Shown piece by piece: positions 5,413 through 31,462 of a stretch of DNA of 31,462 nucleotides. Numbering within the stretch: position 1 is the stretch's first letter; each line of letters starts with the position of its first letter. This DNA is from a virus (Duplodnaviria > Heunggongvirae > Uroviricota > Caudoviricetes): IMG/VR virus record IMGVR_UViG_3300029415_000135; one strand, 5' to 3'. Under the pieces are notes generated by a model that had not been told where the DNA came from, did not search any database, and saw only the letters and a list, made by a program, of their open reading frames with translations. The translations under genes were made by a program, and so were the position numbers.

Positions 5413-6603
5413 TTAATTGCTGTTAACCGAAGTGACCAGATTTGCCAGGTATTTATCGGTAATACGCTGGCGCAGGGTCAGGTTTTCGAGAGGAGGCACC
5501 GGTGTATAGTCGTAGTCGATATACAGTTTTCCGGCCTTGAGGGTTTCCGCATCGTTGGATTCTTCGCTGAACCAGCAGGTCGCATCCACGATATAGCCGT
5601 TTGTTTTCAGCTCACGGAATTTGGCATTGATGCCGTCAACGATGTCGCGAATCAGCGTTGCGGTGATGGGCTTGTCCACCGCCCACATGTGCGCCTCAGC
5701 CATCGTGTCGGCCAGCACCTGCGCGGTGCGGGTGTAGTTTTCAAAGAGGAACAGCGGGTCATCAGAGCAGGTACGGTTACCCCAGAAGCGGAAACCGTCA
5801 CGACGAATCAGCGTTGTGACACCTGACTCGTTCAGCAGGTCAGCATCGGTGCCGGACTCCTGCAAATCCCAGAATACAGATGCGCTGATGCCGGTAACAC
5901 CGTTCACCCCGACGTTGGACAGCGTTTTATGCCAGCCCTGCTCCTGGTCGATTTTAGCGCGCAGCCCCAGCGCACGAGCGGTGGCATACGCGGTGGCGGT
6001 GGTACTGGTGACCGTATCCCATGCGAGGAAATCCGGCCAGATGACCATCAGCTCACGCTGGCTGAAATTCTGGCGGTAGGCTTTCACCTCGGAAATGGTT
6101 TTACAGCCCCATGCGCTGATATACCCGAAAGCGCGCAGCTTCTGACAGACTGATGCCAGTGCAACAGCCACCTCTTTGGTGTCCAGTCCCGGCACGCCGA
6201 GAATACGCGGTTTAACACCGGTAACAGACTCCGCCGCCAGCAGGGCTTTCAGTCCGGTGTACTGACCGTTTTCGTCGGTGGTGCCGATGATATTGGAAAC
6301 GGTCTGCGCGAGTTTTGTTTCCTCGTCGTCGCCGGTGCCGTCTTCCACACGCACGACAACGGTGACCGGTTTTGACTGGTCGGCGATAGCCTGCAACGAT
6401 GCCGCCAGCGTGCCTTTTTTACCGGCCTTTGCAATTGCACTCTGCACATTGGTAATCAGCACCGGTTTATTGAGGGGGAAGGTTTCCGCATCCGCATCGC
6501 TGGCCGTGCAGACCATGCCAACAATGGCAGTGGATACGGTGGAAATGACACGGGTGCCGTCGTTAATCTCCAGCACCTGCACGCCGTGATGATAGTCACT
6601 CAT
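5413..6603 (-). CDS. FI: contractile tail sheath protein (gpFI), 396 aa
   Basis: 396-aa ORF, size and synteny as P2 FI. Confidence 0.9.
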   Translation of the reverse strand: MSDYHHGVQVLEINDGTRVISTVSTAIVGMVCTASDADAETFPLNKPVLITNVQSAIAKAGKKGTLAASLQAIADQSKPVTVVVRVEDGTGDDEETKLAQTVSNIIGTTDENGQYTGLKALLAAESVTGVKPRILGVPGLDTKEVAVALASVCQKLRAFGYISAWGCKTISEVKAYRQNFSQRELMVIWPDFLAWDTVTSTTATAYATARALGLRAKIDQEQGWHKTLSNVGVNGVTGISASVFWDLQESGTDADLLNESGVTTLIRRDGFRFWGNRTCSDDPLFLFENYTRTAQVLADTMAEAHMWAVDKPITATLIRDIVDGINAKFRELKTNGYIVDATCWFSEESNDAETLKAGKLYIDYDYTPVPPLENLTLRQRITDKYLANLVTSVNSN

Positions 6604-6662: not shown

Positions 6663-7256
6663 CTATTTGTCCCGGTTGGCTAAGGGATGACACAATTTAT
6701 TCTTTGCCGCTGATGAGGGGAATTTTTTATAGAGCGTGGACAGGCCAATATCAAAAATCAGCGCCACGCGTTGACGTGATTCACCCGCAGCCAGCAACCG
6801 TCCTGCCTGTTCCCACTCACTCGCGGTGAGCTTCGGACGTCTGCCACCAATACGACCTTTAGCTCTGGCCGCTTCCAGTCCGGCGCGAGTCCGCTCGACA
6901 ATGAGTTCTCGTTCCATTTCAGCCAGGGCACCCATCACATGAAAGAAAAAACGCCCCATCGGCGTGCTGGTATCAATGGCATCCGTCAGGCTGCGAAAAT
7001 TAATGCCGCGTTCGCGCAGCTCCTCAACCAGAATGACCAGATGCCGCATACTACGCCCCAGCCGGTCCAGCTTCCAGACTACCAGTGTATCCCCCTCCGA
7101 TAATGTCCTGAGCAGTTTTTTCAGTCCCGGCCTGTCGGACTTCGTGCCGCTGATTTTGTCCTCAAAAATCAGCTCACATCCTGCACACTCCAGCGCGTTA
7201 CGCTGCAATTCCGTGTTCTGGTCATTTGTTGACACGCGTACATAGCCAATAAGCAT
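6663..7256 (-). CDS. serine-recombinase DNA invertase (Hin/Gin/Cin/Pin family), about 197 aa
   Basis: N-terminus MLIGYVRVSTNDQNTELQ carries the catalytic Ser of resolvase/invertase family proteins; C-terminal HTH region. ATG at 7254-7256 has GGGGG SD 6 nt upstream. Lies directly beside the invertible segment, as gin does in Mu. Confidence 0.88.
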   Translation of the reverse strand: MLIGYVRVSTNDQNTELQRNALECAGCELIFEDKISGTKSDRPGLKKLLRTLSEGDTLVVWKLDRLGRSMRHLVILVEELRERGINFRSLTDAIDTSTPMGRFFFHVMGALAEMERELIVERTRAGLEAARAKGRIGGRRPKLTASEWEQAGRLLAAGESRQRVALIFDIGLSTLYKKFPSSAAKNKLCHPLANRDK

Positions 7257-7311
7257 GAGCATCCCCCTGAATAAAAACCGGAGATGATGCCAGTTGCCCG
7301 TTATCTCTGCA

Positions 7312-7337
7312 TTTTCATAAACGTTGGTTTGGGAGAA
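7312..7337 (+). repeat. 26-bp hix/gix-like recombination site (outer end of invertible segment)
   Basis: TTTTCATAAACGTTGGTTTGGGAGAA; imperfect palindrome with half-sites resembling the TTATCnAAAACC Hin-family consensus; matches the site at 9187-9212 at 20/26 positions in inverted orientation. Confidence 0.75.
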
Positions 7338-7700
7338 GCGGCAAAACGGGATGTGGGTAACGGGCAAAACCAAATTCCTGATATGTCAGCGTGGGAGTGT
7401 GGGGGAGATACAACGACGGGATGGAGGCGAAGCCCGGATGGTTATATTGAACAATGGGGGCTAACTGAGGCCACAACAAATGAAGTTTTGATTAATTTTC
7501 CTATCCCATTTCCGACAGCCGTCATTTCTATTAATGAACATGACCAGGCTCCTGTGGCAGGGAAAATGTCAGTATGGCAATTCTATAAATTGACTAACTC
7601 AAATGTCATAGCAGAGAACCTGGGATCTCTTGATAAAGGAAATCCATCCTTCAATGTTCCAACTGTCGCTGGTTGCCGCTGGTTTGCTACAGGAAGATAA
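7338..7700 (+). CDS. alternative (currently silent) tail-fibre C-terminal segment, fused to H only after inversion
   Basis: In-frame ORF continuing from the crossover site (…GLGE-AAKRDVGNGQNQ…) with no start codon or SD of its own; stop at 7698-7700 directly before the tfa' start. Confidence 0.65.
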   Translation, partial: AAKRDVGNGQNQIPDMSAWECGGDTTTGWRRSPDGYIEQWGLTEATTNEVLINFPIPFPTAVISINEHDQAPVAGKMSVWQFYKLTNSNVIAENLGSLDKGNPSFNVPTVAGCRWFATGR

Positions 7701-7701
7701 A

Positions 7702-8142
7702 ATGAGTAAATATCTTTACGATGCTAAAACTAATATGTTTTACCCATTTACTCTGGAAAGTCAGTATAAGGAGTCTGGGTTATGGCCTCATAATGGAGTT
7801 GAAGTTGATGAGGATATATTTATTAAGTACCTGGCCCCACCTCCAGGGAAAGTGAGAGTTGCGGGTGATGATGGCTATCCTGCATGGGATGACGTACCGC
7901 CGCTAACTCATGAAGAACAACTGTCAGAAGCGGAACGAAAAAAACAGGCACTCATAAATCGAGTTAATGAATATATTAACAGTAAGCAGTGGCCAGGAAA
8001 GGCTGCTATTGGTCGTCTGAAAGGTGAGGAACTGGCGCAATATAATCTGTGGCTGGATTACCTGGACGCACTGGAAATGGTCGATACTTCCAGTGCTCCA
8101 GATATTGAATGGCCTACGCCTCCGGCAGTTCAGGCCAGATGA
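7702..8142 (+). CDS. alternative tail fibre assembly protein (Tfa/Mu U' type), 146 aa
   Basis: ATG at 7702 with AGGAAGA SD; C-terminus ...DTSSAPDIEWPTPP is characteristic of Tfa chaperones; 3' end overlaps the other tfa tail-to-tail. Confidence 0.75.
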   Translation: MSKYLYDAKTNMFYPFTLESQYKESGLWPHNGVEVDEDIFIKYLAPPPGKVRVAGDDGYPAWDDVPPLTHEEQLSEAERKKQALINRVNEYINSKQWPGKAAIGRLKGEELAQYNLWLDYLDALEMVDTSSAPDIEWPTPPAVQAR

Positions 8143-8719
8143 CATCTGGCGCGGTGCTGGTATCAGTTGCCGTCACCGCGTCAATGTAATCCAGCACAGC
8201 GTTAAGGCGGGTTGTTTCTGTCTGCGTCAGTTTACGTCCGGCCTGCAATTTCAGTTGAATCAGACTGATGGAAGCCATTGCAGCATCAATCAGTGACTGG
8301 CGCTGTGCTTCTGCCGCTTCTACTGCGGCGCTATGCTGTGCCTCAGTATCCGCCACCCATTTTTCACCATTCCATTTATCATATGGCGTTAACGGGGCGA
8401 TAGTGGTTGTATTTTCAGGGTAATCACCCAGAGCGGTGATTTCTTTTGATTCTCCTGTTTCGGTGCTATAGACCGTTTCACCGCGATGGTCTGGCACATA
8501 TTCCCATGAGTTTAAATCTGCCGAACGGCAGATTGCATAACCAGCTTTGTTTGAGCTCGGAGCATCTAAACAAGAACATGCCGGGATACCGACACCGACA
8601 GCAAGATATTCAGTTGATGTGGCAATATATTCCCGTGTTTCGCCATCATAATTATAAACGGTAACACTCCCCGCCTTTGTAGCAATAAGCTCACTATTTA
8701 ATACAACTTTATTCATCAT
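8114..8719 (-). CDS. tail fibre assembly protein (Tfa; P2 gpG / Mu U analogue), 201 aa
   Basis: C-terminal ...DTSTAPDVIWPELPE Tfa signature; start overlaps the H stop. Confidence 0.85.
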   Translation of the reverse strand: MMNKVVLNSELIATKAGSVTVYNYDGETREYIATSTEYLAVGVGIPACSCLDAPSSNKAGYAICRSADLNSWEYVPDHRGETVYSTETGESKEITALGDYPENTTTIAPLTPYDKWNGEKWVADTEAQHSAAVEAAEAQRQSLIDAAMASISLIQLKLQAGRKLTQTETTRLNAVLDYIDAVTATDTSTAPDVIWPELPEA

Positions 8720-10026
8720 GCTGCCCTTACAATGTAGTTAAACGCGATATTTCTTGGACGGTTTTCAGATGCAGTTACAACTCCAGGAGCAGCACTGGCA
8801 TCGAAGTCTATACCTTCAGCAATTTTGTCAGTGGCTGAAGTGTTTGTGACATAAGCACTTTGAACTCTTGATGCTACTTTAAGAGCACCAGCAGCGAAAG
8901 TAATCAAAGCACTGCTCGATCCAGGTCTGATATTAAATCCTCCAGTTATATTTCTTATTGCATCCCCTTGAGATGATAACAAATCTCGACCAGCATCCAC
9001 CCCGCGCCCATCATCCCAGCCGCGAATGAATTCACCGCGTAAATCAGGCAATTTATTTGTTGGATAAGCCTTTGCCAGTTCCGGGTATTCTTCTGCAGAA
9101 AAAGGCGCACCGTTGCATTTCAGCCAGCCTGTTGGCGGTGTGGCTGAAGGCCATGGAACAGGCACACCAACGGGCAGTGCAGAGCCTTCCCCCAAACCAA
9201 GGTATGCGAGAAGACCGGCAACATCCTTTCCACTCAAATGAGTCAGCGTCTCATCCAGTGGCTGCTTACCTGACAGCGCATTGTTAATGGTGGTACTGAA
9301 TTTCGGGTCATTGTTAATGGCTGCGGCAATTTCTTTCAGTGTGTCCAGCGTGGCTGGCGCACCGTTAATCAGAGCGGTAATAGCGGCCTGTACAAACGCA
9401 GTGGTCGCAATCCGCGTGGTGTTATTTCCTGCGGCAGGCGTCGGCGCTTTTGGTTCTCCGGTAAATGTCGGATTATGTTTCTGTGCATACTGGGTATGAG
9501 GATCCTGTGCGGCAATGTGGTTTCTCATCTGGTCATCCACATACAGCCTTAATTCCAGGACTTCATCATCCACGTATTTACGGGTCGCCAGTACCACCGA
9601 CGGGTCGATTTTCAGCGTAATAGCTTCGGTATTCGTGACAACCAGAATCATGCGGATAGTCTGGGTACGACCACTGCCTTCCTGCAACTGCGGTTTGTAC
9701 GTTTCCGGGCAGTTCGCCACCGCAATGAGTACGCCTTCATCATCATAAAGCCCAATCTCACGGATCCAGAATCCGCCCTCGTTCTCAGGGATGATTTGCT
9801 CCGCAATAATCTGGCTCTGGTTATTCGGGTCAACACTCAGAAGATTCAGCGGTGCAATGCGTTTCTGGTTAATCAGTTTTGTCTGTGCCGGGTCTGGTGT
9901 CGGCAAGACACCATTCGCATCACCAACGGCCATTTGCGTCAGATTCAGCTTACTGCCGAGCATCGTCGCGTTAGCCAGCCGTGCTGCGCCCTGATTAGTC
10001 AGAATGGCGTAGTATTTCACTGTCAT
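8716..10026 (-). CDS. H: tail fibre protein (gpH-like; constant N-terminal part plus invertible C-terminal part), 436 aa
   Basis: N-terminus (MTVKYYAILTNQGAARLANA…) matches recalled P2 H; the C-terminal part has a tail-collar-like motif (PTGWLKCNGAPFSAEEYPEL); the recombination site is embedded at codons LLAYLGLGE. Confidence 0.88.
   Translation of the reverse strand: MTVKYYAILTNQGAARLANATMLGSKLNLTQMAVGDANGVLPTPDPAQTKLINQKRIAPLNLLSVDPNNQSQIIAEQIIPENEGGFWIREIGLYDDEGVLIAVANCPETYKPQLQEGSGRTQTIRMILVVTNTEAITLKIDPSVVLATRKYVDDEVLELRLYVDDQMRNHIAAQDPHTQYAQKHNPTFTGEPKAPTPAAGNNTTRIATTAFVQAAITALINGAPATLDTLKEIAAAINNDPKFSTTINNALSGKQPLDETLTHLSGKDVAGLLAYLGLGEGSALPVGVPVPWPSATPPTGWLKCNGAPFSAEEYPELAKAYPTNKLPDLRGEFIRGWDDGRGVDAGRDLLSSQGDAIRNITGGFNIRPGSSSALITFAAGALKVASRVQSAYVTNTSATDKIAEGIDFDASAAPGVVTASENRPRNIAFNYIVRAA
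9187..9212 (-). repeat. 26-bp hix/gix-like recombination site inside the tail-fibre gene H (inverted copy)
   Basis: Minus strand reads TTCTCGCATACCTTGGTTTGGGGGAA. Both sites encode ...GLGE... in frame (H codons LLAYLGLGE; alternative segment IFINVGLGE), so inversion makes an in-frame fusion. Confidence 0.75.
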
Positions 10027-10634
10027 GCGTTTACTCTCAGGTTATCAATTAAATGAATGACCGAGGCCGGGAAATAATCCCCTCCGACAATAATGGCCTC
10101 CGGGGTGTAGGGATAAACCGTCAGGGCGTCGCCGTGATAGCATCCCGCACCGGCAAAAATGTTGCCGGTTGTACTTAAACTGATAGCCAGTCCCGTCAAA
10201 TGGCGGCTTGCAGGTTTTGCATCAGCAACGAGACGCTCCAGCTCCTGATACATTTCCTCGGTAATACCCTGCTCAAGCACGCCAACAACGATGCGGAACG
10301 TCCCCGGCTCCTCGTTGAGCTGCCACCACTCCCTCACCTCAATCAGATAGCCGAGCGGCTCCACCACACGGCGAATCGCACCAATAGTGCCCTTATGGCA
10401 GTGAATGAAATACGCATCGCGGATAACAGCGCGTTTGGTCGCTTCCGGCCATTTATCATCCCACCTGTCGACCGAAAATGACCACGCCAGCCACGGCAGC
10501 AGATTTGCCGGGCAGGTGTCCGGGTTCCACAGCTCACGAACACTGACCGGCGTTTTTTCAATTTCCGCACAGGCTTTTGCGGCGGCAACTTCAAGCGGTG
10601 ATGAGCCGGTCGGCAGCAGTCGCGAATCACTCAT
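10023..10634 (-). CDS. I: baseplate/tail protein I (gpI), 203 aa
   Basis: Synteny between J and H; N-terminus recalls P2 gpI; stop overlaps H start (ATGA). Confidence 0.8.
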   Translation of the reverse strand: MSDSRLLPTGSSPLEVAAAKACAEIEKTPVSVRELWNPDTCPANLLPWLAWSFSVDRWDDKWPEATKRAVIRDAYFIHCHKGTIGAIRRVVEPLGYLIEVREWWQLNEEPGTFRIVVGVLEQGITEEMYQELERLVADAKPASRHLTGLAISLSTTGNIFAGAGCYHGDALTVYPYTPEAIIVGGDYFPASVIHLIDNLRVNA

Positions 10635-18959: not shown

Positions 18960-20732
18960 ATGACCATCACCACAGACACCACTCTTTTACACGACCCGCG
19001 TCGTCAGGCGGCGCTGCTGTACTGGCAGGGATTTTCCGTGCCGCAGATTGCCGCCATGTTGCAGATGAAACGCCCGACGGTGCAGAGCTGGAAACAGCGC
19101 GACGGCTGGGACAGCGTTGCCCCCATCAGCCGTGTCGAAATGAGTCTGGAAGCGCGGCTGACCCAGCTCATCATCAAACCGCAGAAAACCGGCGGTGACT
19201 TCAAGGAAATTGACCTGCTCGGACGCCAGATTGAACGACTGGCACGGGTCAACCGTTACAGTCAGACCGGCAACGAGGCAGACCTTAATCCGAACGTCGC
19301 TAACCGCAACAAAGGCGGGCGTCGCAAACCGAAAAAGAATTTTTTCAGTGACGAGGCCATCGAAAAGCTGGAGCAGATTTTCTTTGAGCAGTCTTTCGAA
19401 TATCAGTTGCACTGGTATCGCGCCGGGCTTGAGCACCGCATCCGCGATATCCTGAAATCCCGCCAGATTGGCGCGACGTTTTATTTTTCCCGCGAGGCGC
19501 TGCTGCGCGCCCTGAAAACCGGTCATAACCAGATTTTTCTGTCGGCCAGTAAAACGCAGGCGTATGTGTTCCGCGAATACATCATCGCCTTTGCCCGTCT
19601 GGTTGACGTTGACCTGACCGGTGACCCGATTGTCCTGGGCAATAACGGCGCAAAACTGATTTTTCTCGGCACCAACTCCAACACCGCACAGAGCCATAAC
19701 GGCGACCTGTACGTCGACGAGATTTTCTGGATCCCGAATTTTCAGGTACTGCGTAAGGTGGCATCAGGTATGGCCTCACAGAGTCACCTGCGCTCGACCT
19801 ATTTCTCCACCCCGTCCACGCTGGCGCACGACGCCTACCCGTTCTGGTCGGGTGAACTGTTTAACCGGGGACGCGCCAGCGCCGCCGAACGCGTGGAAAT
19901 CGACGTCAGTCATAACGCCCTTGCCGGTGGGCTTCTCTGTGCGGACGGCCAGTGGCGGCAGATTGTCACCATTGAGGACGCCCTGAAAGGCGGCTGCACA
20001 TTGTTCGACATTGAGCAGCTTAAACGCGAAAACAGCGCCGACGATTTTAAAAACCTGTTCATGTGTGAATTTGTTGACGACAAGGCATCGGTGTTCCCGT
20101 TCGAGGAGTTGCAACGCTGCATGGTCGACACGCTGGAAGAATGGGAAGACTATGCGCCGTTTGCCGCAAATCCGTTCGGCTCACGTCCGGTATGGATTGG
20201 TTACGACCCGTCACACCGTGGCGACAGCGCCGGATGCGTGGTACTGGCACCGCCGGTGGTGGCCGGTGGCAAATTCAGAATACTTGAGCGTCACCAGTGG
20301 AAAGGCATGGACTTTGCCACCCAGGCGGAATCCATCCGCAAACTCACCGAAAAATACAACGTCGAATACATCGGCATTGATGCCACCGGCCTCGGTGTCG
20401 GCGTGTTCCAGCTCGTGCGCTCGTTCTATCCCGCCGCGCGCGATATCCGCTACACGCCGGAAATGAAAACCGCAATGGTGCTCAAGGCAAAAGACGTTAT
20501 CCGCCGTGGCTGTCTGGAATATGACGTCAGCGCCACCGACATCACCAGCTCGTTTATGGCTATCCGCAAGACCATGACCAGCAGCGGACGCAGTGCCACC
20601 TATGAGGCCAGCCGCAGCGAGGAAGCCAGCCACGCCGACCTCGCCTGGGCGACCATGCACGCCCTGTTAAATGAGCCACTCACCGCCGGTATCAGCACCC
20701 CGCTGACATCCACCATTCTGGAGTTTTACTGA
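18960..20732 (+). CDS. P: terminase large (ATPase) subunit (gpP), 590 aa
   Basis: From ATG 18960 (MTITTDTTLLHDPRRQ…, GAGG SD) the ORF is 590 aa, the P2 P size; the ORF-track start at 18930 is a TTG extension. Confidence 0.9.
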   Translation: MTITTDTTLLHDPRRQAALLYWQGFSVPQIAAMLQMKRPTVQSWKQRDGWDSVAPISRVEMSLEARLTQLIIKPQKTGGDFKEIDLLGRQIERLARVNRYSQTGNEADLNPNVANRNKGGRRKPKKNFFSDEAIEKLEQIFFEQSFEYQLHWYRAGLEHRIRDILKSRQIGATFYFSREALLRALKTGHNQIFLSASKTQAYVFREYIIAFARLVDVDLTGDPIVLGNNGAKLIFLGTNSNTAQSHNGDLYVDEIFWIPNFQVLRKVASGMASQSHLRSTYFSTPSTLAHDAYPFWSGELFNRGRASAAERVEIDVSHNALAGGLLCADGQWRQIVTIEDALKGGCTLFDIEQLKRENSADDFKNLFMCEFVDDKASVFPFEELQRCMVDTLEEWEDYAPFAANPFGSRPVWIGYDPSHRGDSAGCVVLAPPVVAGGKFRILERHQWKGMDFATQAESIRKLTEKYNVEYIGIDATGLGVGVFQLVRSFYPAARDIRYTPEMKTAMVLKAKDVIRRGCLEYDVSATDITSSFMAIRKTMTSSGRSATYEASRSEEASHADLAWATMHALLNEPLTAGISTPLTSTILEFY

Positions 20733-21766
20733 TGAGCAAGAAAAAAGGGAAAACACCGCAACCTGCGGCAAAAAAAATGACCGCCAGCGCCCCGAAAATG
20801 GAGGCATTCACCTTTGGTGAGCCGGTGCCGGTACTCGACCGGCGTGACATTCTGGATTACGTCGAGTGCATCAGTAACGGCAGATGGTATGAGCCACCGG
20901 TCAGCTTTACCGGTCTGGCGAAAAGCCTGCGTGCTGCCGTGCATCACAGCTCACCGATTTACGTCAAACGTAATATTCTGGCTTCAACGTTTATCCCGCA
21001 CCCGTGGCTTTCCCAGCAGGATTTCAGCCGTTTTGTGCTGGATTTTCTGGTGTTCGGTAATGCGTTTCTGGAAAAGCGTTACAGCACCACCGGTAAGGTT
21101 ATCAGGCTGGAAACCTCGCCGGCAAAATATACCCGCCGTGGCGTGGAGGAGGATGTTTACTGGTGGGTGCCGTCCTTCAACGAGCCGACAGCCTTCGCGC
21201 CCGGCTCCGTGTTTCACCTGCTGGAGCCGGATATTAATCAGGAGCTGTACGGTCTGCCGGAATATCTCAGCGCCCTTAATTCTGCCTGGCTGAATGAGTC
21301 GGCCACGCTGTTCCGCCGCAAGTATTACGAAAATGGCGCACATGCCGGATACATCATGTACGTCACTGATGCCGTGCAGGATCGCAACGATATCGAAATG
21401 CTACGCGAAAACATGGTTAAGTCAAAAGGCCGCAATAACTTTAAAAATCTGTTTCTCTATGCCCCACAGGGGAAAGCCGACGGCATTAAAATTATCCCCC
21501 TCAGTGAAGTGGCGACGAAGGACGATTTTTTTAATATCAAAAAAGCCAGCGCCGCTGACCTGCTGGACGCGCACCGCATCCCCTTTCAGTTGATGGGTGG
21601 CAAGCCGGAGAACGTCGGGTCGCTGGGTGATATAGAGAAAGTGGCAAAGGTCTTTGTCCGCAATGAGCTTATCCCGTTACAGGACAGGATCCGCGAGATA
21701 AACGGCTGGCTCGGTCAGGAGGTCATCCGCTTTAAAAACTACTCACTGGACACTGACAACGGCTGA
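20732..21766 (+). CDS. Q: portal (capsid) protein (gpQ), 344 aa
   Basis: 344 aa, size and synteny as P2 Q; overlaps the P stop. Confidence 0.9.
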   Translation: MSKKKGKTPQPAAKKMTASAPKMEAFTFGEPVPVLDRRDILDYVECISNGRWYEPPVSFTGLAKSLRAAVHHSSPIYVKRNILASTFIPHPWLSQQDFSRFVLDFLVFGNAFLEKRYSTTGKVIRLETSPAKYTRRGVEEDVYWWVPSFNEPTAFAPGSVFHLLEPDINQELYGLPEYLSALNSAWLNESATLFRRKYYENGAHAGYIMYVTDAVQDRNDIEMLRENMVKSKGRNNFKNLFLYAPQGKADGIKIIPLSEVATKDDFFNIKKASAADLLDAHRIPFQLMGGKPENVGSLGDIEKVAKVFVRNELIPLQDRIREINGWLGQEVIRFKNYSLDTDNG

Positions 21767-22407: not shown

Positions 22408-24030
22408 ATGGGTAGTGATATGCAAATTCAAAGAGGCGTAATTTGGCATACATACACAACACAATCGCCAGAATATCAAGATGCCGAGAAATTTAGTTCA
22501 GACTTGATAAATACAGGGTTGTTTCTTGCAATACTAACGCCACACAACACATTCAAATATTTATCAAAAAACACACCATCCTCAACAAAAATAAGCATGA
22601 GATATGAAAACAACGAAAATGCTGTTACTGTTGAGGGCGGTGATAAGATTCATGCGTCAGGTGTTTGCGCCCTAACTGCTACGGCTTTTTCCCAGTGTAT
22701 AAACATTAGACTCTCTGAAAGAAAGCTTTTTCACACACCAGGTAATAATTATTACGAAAACATAATATGTTGTCAAAAGCCAATCCTAGTAAAAAATAAC
22801 GATGTGGAATTTTTTATTCATCCAATTATTCGTCTCTATAAAAATGGGATAGCACATGTTACCTTTGTTGACACTGAGGAACGCAATGTTGATTTGAATG
22901 ATTTCATAAAAAACATTTTAAACCTACCTTTAAAACTAAACAGTTCGATTACTACCAGCATAGAGTTCGCCAAGAGTTCGTTACTGCTAGACTATTCAGG
23001 AATGCCACTACTTAGTAGACTGATAGCGAAGTGTAGTATTAAAAAGAGTTTAAAACTATTGAACGACAACTCTGAAGATCTAGAGGTTGGTGAATTTAAG
23101 GTTACAGGTAGATATATTGATTACACAAATTTAATGCAAATTCAGCATAATTTAAGTGACATCGCCAGATATGTGATTGCTATAATATTTGACAAAACAA
23201 AAAAAAGAACAATTAAAGATTATCTTTTAGGCAGAAATCTTTCTGAGTTTTATAACTTCTGGCAAGGTAAGCCAAGCGTCTATATCTTCGAGCACGATAA
23301 TCAAAAAAACAATGCCACTGACAATTTTCAGAGTAATAAGTCGTTAGTTTATTCATTGCTGGGCAAAAATCACCTATTAACAAACATAAAGCACACCAAG
23401 AAAATCATTGATCATCGTGCCTTTGATGATTTCAATTTTTTTTCTGAACAGTCTTTAGCACTGACTATACTTACATGTAAAGTTAAAAAAGAATTTTTTA
23501 CCGGGACATATACAGAAGAAAATCTGATGTGGGACAATCAGGTTAAGAGTGATCTTAGAGATTTCATTTCCTTTTCATATGATTCAACAATAGAAAAAAT
23601 TGGAAATGAAAAAAGCCATCTTGGCCTTGCCAAAATACAAGAAGACATCCTTTTATTTGAAGAGTGGCTTAGGATTTTCTCAAGGAAGTATGGAGAGATA
23701 CAAGACTTCACATTTAATACATTAAATTCAATCGATATAAAAAGGGCTCGTCAAAGCGTCATTGAATTGATAAAGTCAAGAATCCAAGTGCTAAAATTAA
23801 TTGATACCGACTTAAATGACAAAAGTAATAAGAAGATAACAATGGCCTTTGGTTTAATTGCATCGACATCATTATCCCCAATTTTAGTAAAGCCATTATT
23901 TGAAACACTAAACCTGTCACTTTTAATTAAGAAATCTGGACTCAAAAGCTATGAAGATGCAATTTACTTTGCCACATCCATGGTTTTGGTTTGGTTAATA
24001 ATAAAGCTATTAAACTTCAGGAGAAAATAG
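22408..24030 (+). CDS. hypothetical protein, 540 aa, AT-rich accessory gene at the P2 old/tin position; candidate anti-phage/abortive-infection protein
   Basis: Long intact ORF in a markedly AT-rich block, opposite in strand to the early operon, between cos and A. No Walker A or other motif recognised; two hydrophobic C-terminal segments (ITMAFGLIASTSLSPILV, AIYFATSMVLVWLIIKLL). Confidence 0.8.
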   Translation: MGSDMQIQRGVIWHTYTTQSPEYQDAEKFSSDLINTGLFLAILTPHNTFKYLSKNTPSSTKISMRYENNENAVTVEGGDKIHASGVCALTATAFSQCINIRLSERKLFHTPGNNYYENIICCQKPILVKNNDVEFFIHPIIRLYKNGIAHVTFVDTEERNVDLNDFIKNILNLPLKLNSSITTSIEFAKSSLLLDYSGMPLLSRLIAKCSIKKSLKLLNDNSEDLEVGEFKVTGRYIDYTNLMQIQHNLSDIARYVIAIIFDKTKKRTIKDYLLGRNLSEFYNFWQGKPSVYIFEHDNQKNNATDNFQSNKSLVYSLLGKNHLLTNIKHTKKIIDHRAFDDFNFFSEQSLALTILTCKVKKEFFTGTYTEENLMWDNQVKSDLRDFISFSYDSTIEKIGNEKSHLGLAKIQEDILLFEEWLRIFSRKYGEIQDFTFNTLNSIDIKRARQSVIELIKSRIQVLKLIDTDLNDKSNKKITMAFGLIASTSLSPILVKPLFETLNLSLLIKKSGLKSYEDAIYFATSMVLVWLIIKLLNFRRK

Positions 24031-24726: not shown

Positions 24727-27018
24727 TCAATCAATCTCCATTATTGAAACATTGGAATATCCCGGCCACTCATCAGCGACCGCATAACTGAATTTTTTCT
24801 CGCCATATGTCACCGTTGCGCCCCGCGCCAGTACATCCAGTTCCCACCGCTCCGGCGTGATACCGTGTTGTGCTAGGTCAAACCGGATGCGTGATATCTG
24901 GTCACGCTGCGATTTAGTCAGTCGCGCTGAAGGTGCTAATTCATCCGGCTTCAACGGTGATCGGTTTCTTTGTTGCCTGTTTTGAGGTTTAGCCCCTGCT
25001 TTTAGCGCGCCCCTGAGCACCTTCACGGCGTCCGGGTCATTCCAGTCGATCACCCCAGCATCAATGAGATTTATCACCGCTGCGGCTTGCTCAGACGGTG
25101 TGGGCGTCATATCCGTGTCGCTTCCGTTGGCCGGTAACCCACAGTTATTGACAGGACTCCGAGGCGCGGCGATGCCGCTTTTTAAAGTCAAAGGCTCAAC
25201 GACCGGCACTTTCGGAACAATGCGCCAGTCCGTCGTTCTGGTGATATGAATATGACGCGCGCCGAGATGCGGCGCGTAAATGCCGACCACTCTCTCGACT
25301 TCTTCCTCGTACTCGTTAACTTCATCCGACGGACTACGGGCGACCCTGACAGTCTGACAATCGCGCGGGACATTTGCCCCACCCTGCGCGCTGATATACA
25401 ACGCAAAATCACCACTGTCTGCGGCGGCGCGTGCAGCCTCGACGCGCTCGTCAAACTCATCAGCAATGCTGACGCCGCGCGGCAATTTGCGTAGTTCACG
25501 GTAAGCCCCCATTGTCGGCAGGCCAACCGTTTTAAATTGCGGGATGCGCCACGTTGACGCCCATGCGGTAACAGCCGCTGCAGTGTCTTTCAGCGGCCTG
25601 CCGGTGTCGTTATCGAGCTGACCATCCAGTGCATAGCCGTCGATGTTTTTTGAAATGTATTTCGCGATATATCCCGCAGCACCGCCCCGGTTAAGGTGTT
25701 TTGCCTGAAAACGGTTTCGCGCGGCTCCTCTTTCGTCGCCATCCTCTTTGAGCGCATAGCGACGCATGATTTCGATAATCTGGTTACGCTGGCGTGAATT
25801 ACAAAAAAGCATCATATGCCAGTGCGGCGTTCCGTCGTGGTGTGGCTCGACGACACGCAAACCGTAGACCTGTAAATCATTATCCTTGAATGCCGTGCGC
25901 ATCAGGCTCCAGATACGGCAGAGATAACGCTGCGCATCCTTTGGATTAAATGCCTCATCATTCCAGCCGTGATTTAGCTGGACGGTTTTACTTTCGCCTT
26001 TTCCGACCTGACGTGTCGGGTGATACTTTGACGGCGCGGTCAGAGTGATAAACATCCCCACATCACCCTCTGCGGCGGCGTAACGCTCAATACCGGCGAT
26101 GGTGTTCATCAGCTCCATCCGGCGAATTTCAGGATTAGAAATACTGCCCATCACCTTACTGATAAGGTCGATGCGCTCGCCGGTTTCCCTGTTTTCGAGG
26201 TCACACGATTTAAGAAATTCCAGATTTGCCTGGCGGCGTGCACGCACATCACGAATGGCATGTTTACTGGCATAAGGAGAACGGTCTTTATTGACCTCCC
26301 CGACAGCAATCAGTAACGCCTCATGCCAGCGCATACGCTGGCCTTTAAGCTGATGAGTCCACCACTCATCGTTAAACAGACGGGCAATGGCAGAATATGC
26401 CTGCCTCGTGGTCATCTGTCCTTTACGGTATTTTTTCCAGTAGAGAGGGGAAATATTGAAAGCACGTGCAGCGCCAGCAACATGACCATACAGATGCGCC
26501 TGCGCCTCATCTGTAAACAGCGATTCTTTCTCGCCATGTGCATCAACCCATGCATCGCAGAGTTCCTCATACATCATGAAAAGCTGCGATGAGATACGGG
26601 CGGCAAACTTTTTCAGCTCCTTGTCATTCATCCCCGGCAGACGCGCATAATGGTCACGCTCTGCCAAAAACAGCAACGACGCGTCGGTGTTCATTTCATG
26701 GCGCTGATTCACGCGCTCAATACGCGGCCATAAACGGCGCTGAAAAGTGGATGTGAGGAAATAAAACCCGTGCACCGGGCTTTTATTGCGCCGGATGTAG
26801 TCATAGCGTGAAGTAAACAGCGAGCGCAAAAAGTAAGGCAGGCGATTAATCGTGGATAAAACACCTTGCACCTGACGCATCTCGTCACGTGTAAGGGGTC
26901 TTTCGCGCCCGACGGCCTCGCGTGGCGCGTTCCATGCATAAGCACCGGTAAACGTCTCACCGGTGCCTGCGGCAAATGCTGACGGAGGGACAAAACGCCC
27001 GGAGGCTTTAACGGCCAT
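24727..27018 (-). CDS. A: replication initiation endonuclease (gpA, rolling-circle), about 763 aa
   Basis: Start taken at the Met of MAVKASGRFVPP… by analogy with recalled P2 gpA; strong similarity throughout, including the HWHMMLF motif region. The ORF track extends 14 codons upstream. Confidence 0.88.
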   Translation of the reverse strand: MAVKASGRFVPPSAFAAGTGETFTGAYAWNAPREAVGRERPLTRDEMRQVQGVLSTINRLPYFLRSLFTSRYDYIRRNKSPVHGFYFLTSTFQRRLWPRIERVNQRHEMNTDASLLFLAERDHYARLPGMNDKELKKFAARISSQLFMMYEELCDAWVDAHGEKESLFTDEAQAHLYGHVAGAARAFNISPLYWKKYRKGQMTTRQAYSAIARLFNDEWWTHQLKGQRMRWHEALLIAVGEVNKDRSPYASKHAIRDVRARRQANLEFLKSCDLENRETGERIDLISKVMGSISNPEIRRMELMNTIAGIERYAAAEGDVGMFITLTAPSKYHPTRQVGKGESKTVQLNHGWNDEAFNPKDAQRYLCRIWSLMRTAFKDNDLQVYGLRVVEPHHDGTPHWHMMLFCNSRQRNQIIEIMRRYALKEDGDERGAARNRFQAKHLNRGGAAGYIAKYISKNIDGYALDGQLDNDTGRPLKDTAAAVTAWASTWRIPQFKTVGLPTMGAYRELRKLPRGVSIADEFDERVEAARAAADSGDFALYISAQGGANVPRDCQTVRVARSPSDEVNEYEEEVERVVGIYAPHLGARHIHITRTTDWRIVPKVPVVEPLTLKSGIAAPRSPVNNCGLPANGSDTDMTPTPSEQAAAVINLIDAGVIDWNDPDAVKVLRGALKAGAKPQNRQQRNRSPLKPDELAPSARLTKSQRDQISRIRFDLAQHGITPERWELDVLARGATVTYGEKKFSYAVADEWPGYSNVSIMEID

Positions 27019-27283
27019 ATGAGCCAAAAGCCTCTGAACAACGCTTGCTGAGTTGCTCAACCTGCGCGTTTAAATCAGCAAAAGACTTTGCGCTTCCGGT
27101 CAGAATATCGTGATGCATCAGGCCGGAAACAAGCTGGCTTAATTTCGGGTAATAACCAACCACCGCCAGCCATTCCTGACCGGCGTTTTTACCGCTTTCA
27201 GCTCTCTTTTTCTCGTGGAGAATAAACTGAAAGCTGTCACTGGTAACGACATAACGTTCGCCAATTTCAATACGAATACTCAT
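27008..27283 (-). CDS. hypothetical early protein, 91 aa (P2 orf83 position)
   Basis: ORF coupled to the upstream gene by ATGA overlap; end overlaps the A start. Confidence 0.6.
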   Translation of the reverse strand: MSIRIEIGERYVVTSDSFQFILHEKKRAESGKNAGQEWLAVVGYYPKLSQLVSGLMHHDILTGSAKSFADLNAQVEQLSKRCSEAFGSYGR

Positions 27284-29637: not shown

Positions 29638-30633
29638 ATGTCTATTAAAAAGCTCGATGATGGTCGTTATGAAGTGGACGTCAGACCGCAGGGTGCAGAT
29701 GGAAAACGTATCAGGCGGAAATTTAAAACTAAAGGTGAAGCTCAAGCATTCGAACGTCATGTCCTGGTTAACTACCACAACAAAGAGTGGTTGGAGAAGC
29801 CGGCCGACCGCCGAACTCTTACAGAGTTGTTAGGCAGATGGTGGATATATCACGGAAAATCACATGAGCGTGGAGATATTGAACGAGGGCGTTTGACGAC
29901 AATAATCGCCAAATTTGCCGAGATGGGAGTGTCCAGGGCGGACCAGCTAACAAAGAAAACGATAACTGATTATCGCGTTGTAATGATGAACGATGGCCTA
30001 AAACCAGCCAGCGTAAATCGGCATCTGGCAATAATGAGCGGGATGTTCACCAAGTTAATTGACGCCGGTGAATATCACTCTCACAACCCGTTCCGTGAGG
30101 TTAAGCGGTTACGTGAAGCTGTTACGGAAATGGCTTTTTTGTCCAGTGAAGAGATTACGCGGCTGTTATCCATGCTTGATGGTGATGAGTTAAATGCAAC
30201 TCTGGTCTGCCTTTCTACTGGTGGACGCTGGAGTGAAGTGTCTAATTTGAAAGCTGAACACATCATTAACCAGATGGTTACGTTTATGAAAACTAAAAAC
30301 GGAAAGCGCAGGACAATTCCCGTTTCGCAGGACCTGATTAAACGGATCAAGACCAAAAATTCAGGCAGGCTTTTTAATGCCAGTTACTACAAAGTGCGCA
30401 ACGCTCTCAGGGAAGTAAAACCCGATTTACCTGACGGACAGGCAGTGCATGTTTTGAGGCATACATTTGCCACACATTTTATAATGAATGGAGGTAACAT
30501 AATCACATTGCAGCGCATCCTGGGTCATTCTAACATTCAGCAAACTATGACCTACGCACACTTTGCACCGGATTTCTTACAAGATGCTGTGACTCTTAAC
30601 CCGGTGTCAGGAATGTCCATAATGCGTCCATAA
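29638..30633 (+). CDS. int: tyrosine integrase (P2 Int family), 331 aa
   Basis: N-terminus MSIKKLDDGRYEVDVRPQG… resembles P2 Int; C-terminal catalytic region with …HVLRHTFATHF… and …LGHSNIQQTMTYAH… (R, H-x-x-R, Y); GGAGGG SD. Confidence 0.88.
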   Translation: MSIKKLDDGRYEVDVRPQGADGKRIRRKFKTKGEAQAFERHVLVNYHNKEWLEKPADRRTLTELLGRWWIYHGKSHERGDIERGRLTTIIAKFAEMGVSRADQLTKKTITDYRVVMMNDGLKPASVNRHLAIMSGMFTKLIDAGEYHSHNPFREVKRLREAVTEMAFLSSEEITRLLSMLDGDELNATLVCLSTGGRWSEVSNLKAEHIINQMVTFMKTKNGKRRTIPVSQDLIKRIKTKNSGRLFNASYYKVRNALREVKPDLPDGQAVHVLRHTFATHFIMNGGNIITLQRILGHSNIQQTMTYAHFAPDFLQDAVTLNPVSGMSIMRP

Positions 30634-30664: not shown

Positions 30665-31462
30665 ATGAGTAATTTAACTAATTGTAATACAACAGAAAAT
30701 ACCGCTGCGGCGGGGGCTACCAAGTCAGTTATTGGTCGCATTCACTCCTTTGAATCCTGTGGAACCGTAGACGGCCCGGGTATTCGCTTTATCACCTTTT
30801 TCCAGGGCTGCCTGATGCGCTGCCTGTATTGTCATAACCGCGACACCTGGGATACGCATGGCGGTAAAGAAGTTACCGTTGAAGATTTAATGAAAGAGGT
30901 GGTGACCTATCGCCACTTTATGAACGCTTCCGGCGGCGGCGTTACCGCATCCGGCGGTGAGGCAATCCTACAAGCTGAGTTTGTTCGTGACTGGTTCCGC
31001 GCCTGCAAAAAAGAAGGCATTCATACCTGTCTGGACACCAACGGTTTTGTTCGTCGTTACGATCCGGTGATTGATGAACTGCTGGAAGTAACCGACCTGG
31101 TAATGCTCGATCTCAAACAGATGAACGACGAGATCCACCAAAATCTGGTTGGAGTTTCCAACCACCGCACGCTGGAGTTCGCCAAATATCTGGCGAACAA
31201 AAATGTGAAGGTGTGGATCCGCTACGTTGTTGTCCCAGGCTGGTCTGACGATGACGATTCAGCGCATCGCCTCGGTGAATTTACCCGTGATATGGGCAAC
31301 GTTGAGAAAATCGAACTCCTCCCCTACCACGAGCTGGGCAAACACAAATGGGTGGCAATGGGTGAAGAGTACAAACTCGACGGTGTTAAACCACCTAAGA
31401 AAGAGACCATGGAACGCGTGAAAGGCATTCTTGAGCAGTACGGTCATAAGGTAATGTTCTAA
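30665..31462 (+). CDS. pflA: pyruvate formate-lyase 1 activating enzyme (radical SAM), host gene; ORF as drawn is 265 aa
   Basis: From [19 protein letters not shown]… the translation matches recalled E. coli PflA, including the CxxxCxxC radical-SAM motif (CLMRCLYC). The codon at the recalled initiator position (30722-30724) is AAG; first in-frame ATG is at 30665. Confidence 0.85.

What the first reader, a model, noticed from the sequence alone, without database searches (positions are those of the whole stretch)
6663..9212. Invertible tail-fibre switch with serine invertase in a P2-type tail module, both crossover sites identifiable
Canonical P2 has H-G followed by Z/fun before FI. Here that position holds a Hin/Gin-family invertase and an ~1.9 kb segment bounded by inverted 26-bp hix/gix-like sites (7312-7337; 9187-9212). 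One site lies inside H at codons LLAYLGLGE; the other precedes a promoterless ORF that is in frame with it (…VGLGE-AAKRD…). Inversion would swap the H C-terminal tip and its partner Tfa chaperone, switching host range. The alternative tip is unusually short, at about 120 codons.
Basis: partly seen in the sequence, partly recalled or inferred. Interest (0 to 1): 0.6.

Follow-up and report, generated by a model that had tools for sequence, protein, structure and literature searches.

The report
Invertible tail-fibre switch in P2-like prophage
This is an ordinary, already well-documented phage device: a Pin/Gin/Cin-type DNA invertase flips a 1.9-kb segment so that a P2-like prophage can put either of two receptor-binding tips (each with its own assembly chaperone) on its tail fibre.

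Summary
Two 26-bp sites in inverted orientation (7312-7337 and 9187-9212) flank a 1,877-bp segment. It sits between tail-fibre gene H and a 197-aa serine invertase, in a P2-type tail module, where canonical P2 carries fun(Z).

A matrix built only from annotated Mu gix and P1 cix sites scores these two sites 21.0 and 22.6 bits. The next best in the window scores 10.0, and the best of 200 shuffles 19.0.

The invertase is 86% identical to PinE of e14, 79% to Cin and 76% to Gin. It keeps Ser9, the Fis-contact residues, and an enhancer-like stretch with two Fis-like cores in the Hin geometry.

In-silico inversion gives an in-frame 400-aa H. That exact protein exists in public E. coli genomes.

Three pairs of near-identical E. 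coli prophages, one pair within a single assembly, differ only by inversion of this segment, with breakpoints inside the sites.

The alternative tip (120 residues after GLGE) is not unusually short, since e14 StfP has 108. The "promoterless ORF" has its own ATG.

The arrangement is already known from e14, Fels-2 and EPEC P2-like prophages, and from a survey of the P2 Z/fun hotspot. Interest is low.

The parts
6663..7256 (-). Serine DNA invertase (197 aa, Pin/Cin/Gin family; catalytic Ser9)
   Evidence: Pfam Resolvase 3e-52 and HTH_7 1e-12. PDB Gin 3UJ3 at E 6.6e-95. 86% aa identity to PinE, 79% to Cin, 76% to Gin.
7167..7238 (-). Enhancer-like stretch inside the invertase 5' coding region (gene nt 19-90), with Fis-like 15-bp cores at 7220-7234 and 7172-7186
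   Evidence: It aligns without gaps to the annotated P1 Cin enhancer, 57/72 identical, against 67% identity for the rest of the gene. The cores sit in the same register in pinE, cin and gin. There are 47 bp between the core centres, and the nearer core lies about 97 bp from the centre of site L. Synonymous-codon identity is raised in codons 1-12 and 25-36. Fis binding was not tested.
7312..7337 (.). Crossover site L (invertase-proximal), core dinucleotide 7324-7325
   Evidence: I1. PWM score 21.0 bits. The identical site bounds the inversion in L001/L002, L006/L007 and L015/L016.
7326..7700 (+). Silent alternative H C-terminal tip (Sv'-like, gp53-like C-terminal domain); as a free-standing ORF it starts at ATG 7284
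   Evidence: Pfam Gp53-like_C 3.3e-12. It matches the C-terminal ends of PHROG tail-fibre families. Weak PDB matches to R1/R2 pyocin fibres and AP22 gp53. It is in frame with H after inversion.
7702..8142 (+). Silent alternative tail-fibre assembly chaperone (Tfa', 146 aa)
   Evidence: Pfam Caudo_TAP 6.8e-35. Its C-terminal half is 69% identical to e14 TfaP.
8114..8719 (-). Currently expressed tail-fibre assembly chaperone (Tfa, 201 aa; P2 G equivalent)
   Evidence: Pfam Caudo_TAP 8.5e-33. 90.5% identical to e14 TfaE. Its start overlaps the H stop codon (ATGA).
8716..9198 (-). Currently expressed variable C-terminal tip of H (collar-domain type)
   Evidence: Pfam Collar 7.1e-15. PDB short tail fibre 9CUY at 5.3e-28 and T4 gp37/gp12. 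60% identical to e14 StfE.
9187..9212 (.). Crossover site R inside H (codons LLAYLGLGE), core dinucleotide 9199-9200
   Evidence: I1. PWM score 22.6 bits. The homologous site bounds the natural inversions.
9199..10026 (-). Constant N-terminal part of tail-fibre protein H
   Evidence: Pfam Phage_tail_fib 2.6e-62. The same constant part is fused to either tip in E. coli W and B-766.

Best explanation
This is a Pin/Cin/Gin-type flip-flop host-range switch sitting in the Z/fun hotspot of a P2-like prophage.

The late V-operon transcript reads through H, so only the tip and chaperone lying downstream of the constant part of H are made. In the present orientation that is the collar-type tip (8716-9198) and the TfaE-like chaperone.

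The invertase (7256..6663) binds as dimers to the two 26-bp sites. Together with Fis bound to the enhancer in its own 5' coding region, it cuts at the TT/AA core dinucleotides (7324-7325 and 9199-9200) and rotates the 1,877-bp segment. This fuses H codons 1-277 in frame to the gp53-like tip (giving a 400-aa H') and brings the second chaperone into the operon.

A lysogen population therefore releases two kinds of virion with different receptor specificity.

Shown here: the anatomy, family membership by sequence, the in-frame product, and natural inversion in close relatives.

Inferred: Fis dependence, the transcription logic, and the different receptor specificity of the two tips.
For: Anatomy and domains.

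Sites: they match gix/cix with an independent matrix, far above shuffles, and only two exist.

Invertase: 76-86% identical to Gin, Cin and PinE. The catalytic block (YVRVS, WKLDRLGRS) is identical. The residues that PMC3798978 gives as specific to Fis/enhancer-dependent invertases are kept (Hin K47, K/R48, K/R51 correspond to K46, K47, R50; Hin Q151, R154, L155 correspond to Q150, R153, L154).

Enhancer-like stretch: two Fis-like cores with 47 bp between their centres, about 97 bp from site L. PMC3798978 reports 47 bp and about 100 bp for hin.

Product: in-silico inversion gives a 400-aa in-frame H'. That exact sequence is in the public protein collection on 19 contigs, annotated as E. coli phage tail protein.

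Natural isomers: E. coli W versus B-766, the MS 198-1 66.8-kb record versus its chromosome (flanks 100% identical), and ABW_A19 versus UTME-13. Each pair differs only by inversion of the segment, with breakpoints inside the 26-bp sites.

Frequency: among complete E. coli genomes, 42 match the window orientation and 26 the inverted isomer at 80% coverage or more.

Experiments by others: inversion in EPEC P2-like prophages was shown by sequencing and PCR (PMC4272514). Inversion of the homologous e14 P segment by PinE/PinQ was shown in PMC12529663.
Against: - No read-level or experimental data exist for this very element. The window is one metagenome contig (ERZ1745402 NODE_280) in one orientation.
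- The reciprocal 174-aa ORF expected in the inverted isomer of this exact prophage is not in the protein collection.
- Site R carries one change in its inner half-site (TTCCCCCAAACC instead of TTCTCCCAAACC in the relatives that demonstrably flip). The same base occurs in Mu gixR.
- The consensus scan found no convincing sigma-70 promoter for the invertase.
- The receptors of the two tips are unknown.
Confidence: 0.88

Rival explanations
1. The switch in this particular prophage is a frozen relic. The parts are recognisable but the segment no longer inverts, because of the changed base in site R, weak invertase expression, or the non-canonical AAACG in site L.
For: Only one orientation of this exact element is on record. 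There is one substitution in the inner half-site of R relative to flipping relatives. No promoter-like site lies upstream of the invertase.
Against: Site L is identical to the one in all three natural isomer pairs. The changed base in R is synonymous in H, and the same base occurs at that position in the functional Mu gixR. The invertase ORF is intact with all conserved blocks. Other Pin-family invertases in the host can act in trans (PMC12529663).
Confidence: 0.06
2. The main selected function lies in the lysogen, not the virion. In the present orientation the 138-aa ORF 7284-7700 (invertase-proximal start plus gp53-like domain) would be made as a free protein. Like e14 StfE2, it would block adsorption of other phages, making the inversion a defence toggle.
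For: The ORF has the same build as e14 StfE2: an N-terminus ...IFINVGLGE from the invertase-proximal side fused to a gp53-like C-terminal domain. PMC12529663 reports that StfE2 reduces T2 adsorption. RefSeq annotates the homologues as free-standing CDS.
Against: The prophage looks complete, so a virion function is the simpler reading. No promoter-like site lies upstream of 7284. The gp53-like tip here shows no significant BLASTP similarity to e14 StfP. The StfE2 effect was shown with plasmid overexpression in a cryptic prophage.
Confidence: 0.05
3. The inverted repeat is a chance or recombination-scar feature of mosaic tail-fibre genes, and the invertase is unrelated cargo of the Z/fun hotspot.
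For: The repeat is only 78% complementary, and similar-sized inverted repeats occur nearby by chance. The hotspot carries varied cargo (bioRxiv 10.1101/2024.10.15.618418).
Against: The PWM scores are far above shuffles, and these are the only two sites in 31 kb. The breakpoints of three natural inversions fall exactly in them. The frame is preserved.
Confidence: 0.01

Closest known systems
e14 P segment with PinE (E. coli K-12 cryptic prophage)
   Same: Same gene order: stf constant part, tip, tfa, then inverted tfa' and tip', then the invertase with its 5' end next to the site. The invertase is 86% identical. TfaE is 90.5% identical, StfE 60%, and the TfaP C-terminal half 69%. The GLGE crossover motif and the inner repeat TTGGTTTGGGAGAAG are the same. 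The convergent tfa genes overlap by 29 nt in both.
   Different: Here the cassette sits in an apparently complete P2-type myovirus tail module fused to a P2-family H, not in a defective lambdoid element. The gp53-like tip is a distant relative of StfP, not a close one. The segment is 1,877 bp against 1,797 bp.
P1 C segment/Cin and Mu G segment/Gin
   Same: The logic is the same: a constant Sc part plus invertible Sv-U / U'-Sv'. The sites are 26 bp, and site R resembles cixR (AAACC AA GGTAT). The enhancer lies in the 5' coding region of the invertase. Protein identity is 76-79%.
   Different: The variable parts are far shorter here (156 and 120 residues, against about 320-530). In P1 the 3' end of cin abuts the segment; here, as in Mu, Hin and e14, the 5' end does. 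The tail-fibre proteins are unrelated outside the chaperone family.
Invertible tail-fibre loci of P2-like prophages (Fels-2 Fin in Salmonella LT2/LT7; two P2-like prophages of EPEC E2348/69; phage 'P2' of O157:H43 T22; pro483)
   Same: The phage family, the position between G and FI, and the annotated DNA invertase are all the same. Inversion was demonstrated or inferred (PMC7953296; PMC4272514). The bioRxiv survey notes invertases with inverted neighbours in the Z/fun hotspot.
   Different: This window has its own combination of tips. The expressed tip differs from E. coli W over about window 8396-9185. One EPEC prophage has three sites (a shufflon); this one has two.
Hin/hix flagellar phase switch (Salmonella)
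   Same: It belongs to the same invertase subfamily. The Fis-contact residues are conserved. The enhancer geometry (47 bp between Fis cores, about 100 bp from the near site) is the same.
   Different: Hin flips a promoter, whereas this system swaps coding C-termini.

Membership tests
Fis/enhancer-dependent DNA invertase systems (Hin/Gin/Cin/Pin) | Small serine recombinase: N-terminal catalytic domain with the nucleophilic Ser9/10, and a C-terminal helix-turn-helix | tested here: met
   Pfam Resolvase plus HTH_7. MLIGYVRVS(9)T and WKLDRLGRS are identical to Gin, Cin and PinE. Gin structure 3UJ3 at E 6.6e-95.
Fis/enhancer-dependent DNA invertase systems (Hin/Gin/Cin/Pin) | Two 26-bp sites in inverted orientation, each made of two imperfect 12-bp half-sites around a 2-bp core that is identical in both sites | tested here: met
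   Sites at 7312-7337 and 9187-9212, both with core TT/AA. PWM from Mu and P1 sites gives 21.0 and 22.6 bits, against a maximum of 19.0 in shuffles.
Fis/enhancer-dependent DNA invertase systems (Hin/Gin/Cin/Pin) | Recombinational enhancer with two Fis sites at fixed spacing, in cis, within the invertase 5' coding region | tested here: inconclusive
   The sequence aligns to the annotated P1 Cin enhancer (57/72). Two Fis-like cores have 47 bp between their centres and lie about 97 bp from site L. Synonymous conservation is raised at both cores. Fis binding and enhancer activity cannot be tested with these tools.
Fis/enhancer-dependent DNA invertase systems (Hin/Gin/Cin/Pin) | Residues specific to Fis/enhancer-dependent invertases (Hin K47, K/R48, K/R51; Q151, R154, L155) | tested here: met
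   K46, K47, R50 and Q150, R153, L154 are present, read by me from the alignment with Gin and Cin. The residue list is from PMC3798978.
Fis/enhancer-dependent DNA invertase systems (Hin/Gin/Cin/Pin) | The segment actually inverts | tested here: inconclusive
   Met for near-identical relatives: three isomer pairs with breakpoints in the sites. The exact predicted H' protein exists. For this very element only one orientation is on record.
Invertible tail-fibre cassettes (Mu G / P1 C / e14 P type) | A constant N-terminal fibre part outside the segment, and two alternative C-terminal tips, each followed by its own Tfa chaperone, in opposite orientations inside it, both in frame at the crossover | tested here: met
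   Homology to e14 stfE/tfaE/tfaP.
P2-like (Peduoviridae) tail module | Gene order V-W-J-I-H-G ... FI-FII-E/E'-T-U-D with P2-family proteins | tested here: met
   Pfam Tail_P2_I and the sheath domains. P2_Phage_GpR, Phage_tail_S, Phage_base_V, GPW_gp25, Baseplate_J and Phage_tube on the identical contig. 97.6% nucleotide identity to P2 from the pF promoter through FI-FII-E-T.

The most novel reading that the evidence does not exclude
In the present orientation the small ORF 7284-7700 is expressed in the lysogen. It consists of an invertase-proximal start codon, the GLGE crossover motif, and a gp53-like lectin-type domain. It would act like e14 StfE2 as a secreted or surface protein that blocks adsorption of unrelated phages. 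The same inversion would then toggle both virion host range and a host defence phenotype in an intact, inducible P2-like prophage.
Probability: 0.07. Interest if true: 0.5.

Novelty: already known. Interest (0 to 1): 0.12.

Why it matters
It matters little beyond correct annotation.

The switch means that a lysogen of this prophage should release two virion types, so host-range predictions from a single assembly show only half of the picture.

Assemblies and annotation pipelines mishandle such loci:
- RefSeq calls the intact H of E. coli W two partial pseudogenes.
- RefSeq calls the silent tips free-standing genes.
- One assembly carries both orientations in separate records.

The only route to something new is the StfE2-like reading of the small ORF, which is speculative.

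Tried and rejected
- **Third crossover site (shufflon, as in one EPEC P2-like prophage).** A core-pattern search, a consensus scan and a PWM scan of the whole window found only two sites.
- **Promoter for the invertase or for ORF 7284-7700.** The consensus scan found nothing in 7257-7340 on either strand. The overall count equals the shuffle expectation.
- **A weak hairpin at 7295-7276 on the minus strand.** It has 3 G-C pairs and an 8-nt loop, and is not convincing as a terminator.
- **Rfam and tRNA scans of the window.** Neither gave any hits.
- **NCBIfam.** There is no specific model for the invertase, tips or chaperones. Only sub-threshold matches to other serine recombinases appeared.
- **Contigs encoding the exact recombinant H' (P0002).** I therefore could not check whether any of its 19 contigs carries this window's own expressed tip in the silent position.
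- **Johnson's 2015 review (PMC4384473).** It is not held.
- **Treating B-766 as the same strain as E. coli W.** I dropped this because the left flank has 7 mismatches in 2.4 kb. The MS 198-1 pair is the clean same-assembly case.
Full report
**1. What is in the sequence**

On the minus strand the window carries a P2-type tail module. The genes, in order, are:
- I (10634..10023, Pfam Tail_P2_I);
- H (10026..8716, 436 aa, Phage_tail_fib N-terminal domain plus Collar);
- a Tfa chaperone (8719..8114, Caudo_TAP);
- after a gap that holds plus-strand genes, a 197-aa protein with Resolvase and HTH_7 domains (7256..6663);
- the sheath gene FI (6603..5413).

Two plus-strand ORFs lie in the gap. ORF 7284-7700 has a gp53-like C-terminal domain, and 7702-8142 is a second Caudo_TAP chaperone.

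The 236-aa ORF that the ORF lister starts at 7373 is an upstream extension. The invertase begins at ATG 7256 (MLIGYVRVST...), as in Gin, Cin and PinE.

The annotated P2 reference confirms that canonical P2 has H, G, a terminator, fun(Z) on the other strand, the pF promoter and FI at this place. P2 homology (97.6%) resumes at window 6683, inside the pF activator-binding site.

**2. The sites**

The repeat finder gives arms 7312-7338 and 9186-9212. Read as 26-bp sites they are:
- L: TTTTCATAAACG-TT-GGTTTGGGAGAA;
- R (reverse complement): TTCTCGCATACC-TT-GGTTTGGGGGAA.

The repeat alone is unremarkable, at 78% complementarity with several chance repeats of similar size nearby. I therefore built a half-site matrix only from the annotated Mu G-segment boundaries and P1 cixL/cixR and scanned the window. 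The two sites score 22.6 and 21.0 bits, and the third best 26-mer scores 10.0. The maxima of 200 shuffles average 11.0 and peak at 19.0.

There is no third site, so this is a simple two-state switch, not a shufflon.

**3. Frame and products**

Site R lies in H at ...LLAYLGLGE. Site L lies in ...IFINVGLGE-AAKRD.

Inverting 7324..9200 in silico joins H codons 1-277 to the gp53-like tip and gives a 400-aa open frame.

That exact 400-aa sequence is in the public protein collection on 19 contigs, named phage tail protein of E. coli. The longest is a 5,062,632-bp record, the same length as the B-766 chromosome. It equals the H' translated from B-766.

The present 436-aa H occurs only on a few metagenome contigs. 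One of them, ERZ1745402 NODE_280, is 100% identical to the window over 9 kb.

The reciprocal 174-aa ORF expected in the inverted isomer of this very prophage is not on record.

**4. Does it flip in nature?**

Searching complete E. coli genomes with the window orientation and with my inverted isomer found 42 and 26 genomes respectively with at least 80% coverage.

Three pairs were compared base by base.

| Pair | Flanks | Middle segment |
|---|---|---|
| E. coli W vs B-766 | collinear, 99.7-100% | 1,844 bp inverted, 99.95% |
| MS 198-1: 66.8-kb circular record vs chromosome of the same assembly | 100% over 2,439 and 2,513 bp | 1,900 bp inverted, one mismatch |
| ABW_A19 vs UTME-13 | collinear, 99.7-100% | 1,879 bp inverted, 99.8% |

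In each pair the collinear and inverted alignments overlap only within the 26-bp sites, on the core dinucleotide and the inner half-site. The differing outer half-sites stay with the flanks. That is what exchange at the core predicts.

**5. The recombinase and its control elements**

The invertase is 86% identical to PinE of e14, 79% to Cin and 76% to Gin. It matches the Gin crystal structures at E about 1e-94.

PMC3798978 lists residues conserved only in Fis/enhancer-dependent invertases: Hin K47, K/R48 and K/R51 on helix B, and Q151, R154 and L155 on DBD helix 1. The window protein has K46, K47, R50 and Q150, R153, L154. I read these from the alignment, with numbering one lower than in Hin.

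The P1 record annotates the Cin enhancer at cin nt 19-90. The window aligns to it without gaps at 57/72, against 67% identity for the rest of the gene.

Two Fis-like 15-bp cores occur in the same register in the window, pinE, cin and gin:
- TGTCAACAAATGACC, gene nt 23-37, window 7234..7220;
- GTGCAGGATGTGAGC, gene nt 71-85, window 7186..7172.

There are 47 bp between their centres, and the nearer core is about 97 bp from the centre of site L. PMC3798978 gives 47 bp and about 100 bp for hin.

Across eight invertase genes, identity of synonymous codons is highest in codons 1-12 (0.68) and 25-36 (0.58), against 0.30-0.46 elsewhere. This fits an overlapping DNA constraint, although the sequences are not independent.

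Fis binding itself was not and cannot be tested here.

**6. The tips**

The expressed tip (156 residues after GLGE) matches phage short or long tail-fibre collar regions: 9CUY at 5e-28, and T4 gp37 and gp12. It is 60% identical to e14 StfE.

The silent tip (120 residues after GLGE) is a gp53-like C-terminal domain. It has weak matches to R1/R2 pyocin fibres and AP22 gp53. It aligns end to end with the C-terminal ends of PHROG tail-fibre families.

It is not unusually short. The e14 StfP tip has 108 residues after GLGE. Both tips here are much shorter than those of Mu (about 320-335 aa) and P1 (about 520-535 aa).

G+C falls to 0.39-0.45 in both tips, against 0.55-0.59 in the P2 backbone. The expressed tip differs from that of E. 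coli W over about 8396-9185. Both observations fit cassette mosaicism.

**7. Comparison with what is known**

The whole cassette is homologous to the e14 P segment. The inner repeat reported for e14, TTGGTTTGGGAGAAGG, is the same sequence (PMC12529663).

Invertible tail-fibre loci in P2-like prophages are published:
- Two in EPEC E2348/69 were shown to coexist in both orientations by sequencing and PCR (PMC4272514).
- Fels-2 fin was described in LT2/LT7 (PMC7953296).
- A 2024 survey states that a DNA invertase with inverted neighbours is often seen in the P2 Z/fun hotspot (bioRxiv 10.1101/2024.10.15.618418).

Deposited phages with the same layout include 'Escherichia phage P2' from O157:H43 T22, pro483 and Salmonella phage MET_P1_103_31.

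**8. Verdict**

The mechanism is the classical Fis/enhancer-dependent serine-invertase flip-flop that swaps the tail-fibre tip and its chaperone. Confidence is 0.88.

The remaining probability goes mostly to two readings: that this copy is frozen, and that the small ORF 7284-7700 has an StfE2-like role in the lysogen (PMC12529663).

The kind is already known, and this is one more instance with its own pair of tips. Interest is 0.12.

Noticed in passing
window 22408-24030 (+): A 540-aa ORF lies between the portal gene Q (20732-21766) and the replication gene A (24727-27060). This is the P2 old/tin cargo hotspot next to cos. It has no Pfam, PADLOC or NCBIfam hit. Its only match is a full-length one to PHROG 24946 of unknown function. 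It is a candidate uncharacterised cargo or defence gene.
   Followed up: partly
window 6663-6700: The last 13 or so codons of the invertase (…KNKLCHPLANRDK; 197 aa against 184 in PinE) run into the conserved P2 pF late-promoter region. P2 homology starts at 6683, inside the annotated activator-binding site. The cassette therefore abuts the FI promoter with no spacer, and the invertase tail looks like read-through into promoter DNA.
   Followed up: partly
L006 (NZ_CP146689.1) and L007 (NZ_CP146687.1), E. coli MS 198-1: The same assembly holds the prophage twice with the segment in opposite orientations: once in the chromosome and once in a 66,790-bp circular 'plasmid'. That length is about twice a P2-like genome. 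It may be an excised phage dimer or an assembly product of a mixed-orientation culture.
   Followed up: no
L001 3807-5090 (E. coli W, NC_017635.1): RefSeq annotates H as two partial pseudogene pieces, yet the region translates as one uninterrupted 427-aa ORF. The silent tips are elsewhere annotated as free-standing 'gp53-like domain-containing protein' or 'phage tail protein' genes. These look like annotation artefacts of invertible loci.
   Followed up: yes
window 8114-8142, and 8052-8069 / 8178-8195: The two convergent Tfa genes overlap tail to tail by 29 nt, as tfaP and tfaE do in e14. Inverted repeat I4 is simply the conserved C-terminal LDY(L/I)DA motif of both chaperones read on opposite strands.
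   Followed up: yes
L008 2425-2450 (phage 'P2' of O157:H43 T22, KC618326): In this relative the invertase-proximal site has the H-side outer half-site (TTCTCGCATACC) instead of TTTTCATAAACG. Its invertase CDS is annotated shorter, at 495 nt. This may be the trace of an earlier rearrangement or a damaged switch.
   Followed up: no
window 30665-31462 (+): A radical-SAM / 4Fe-4S protein gene lies just beyond the integrase (29638-30633). It is presumably the host gene next to the attachment site.
   Followed up: no
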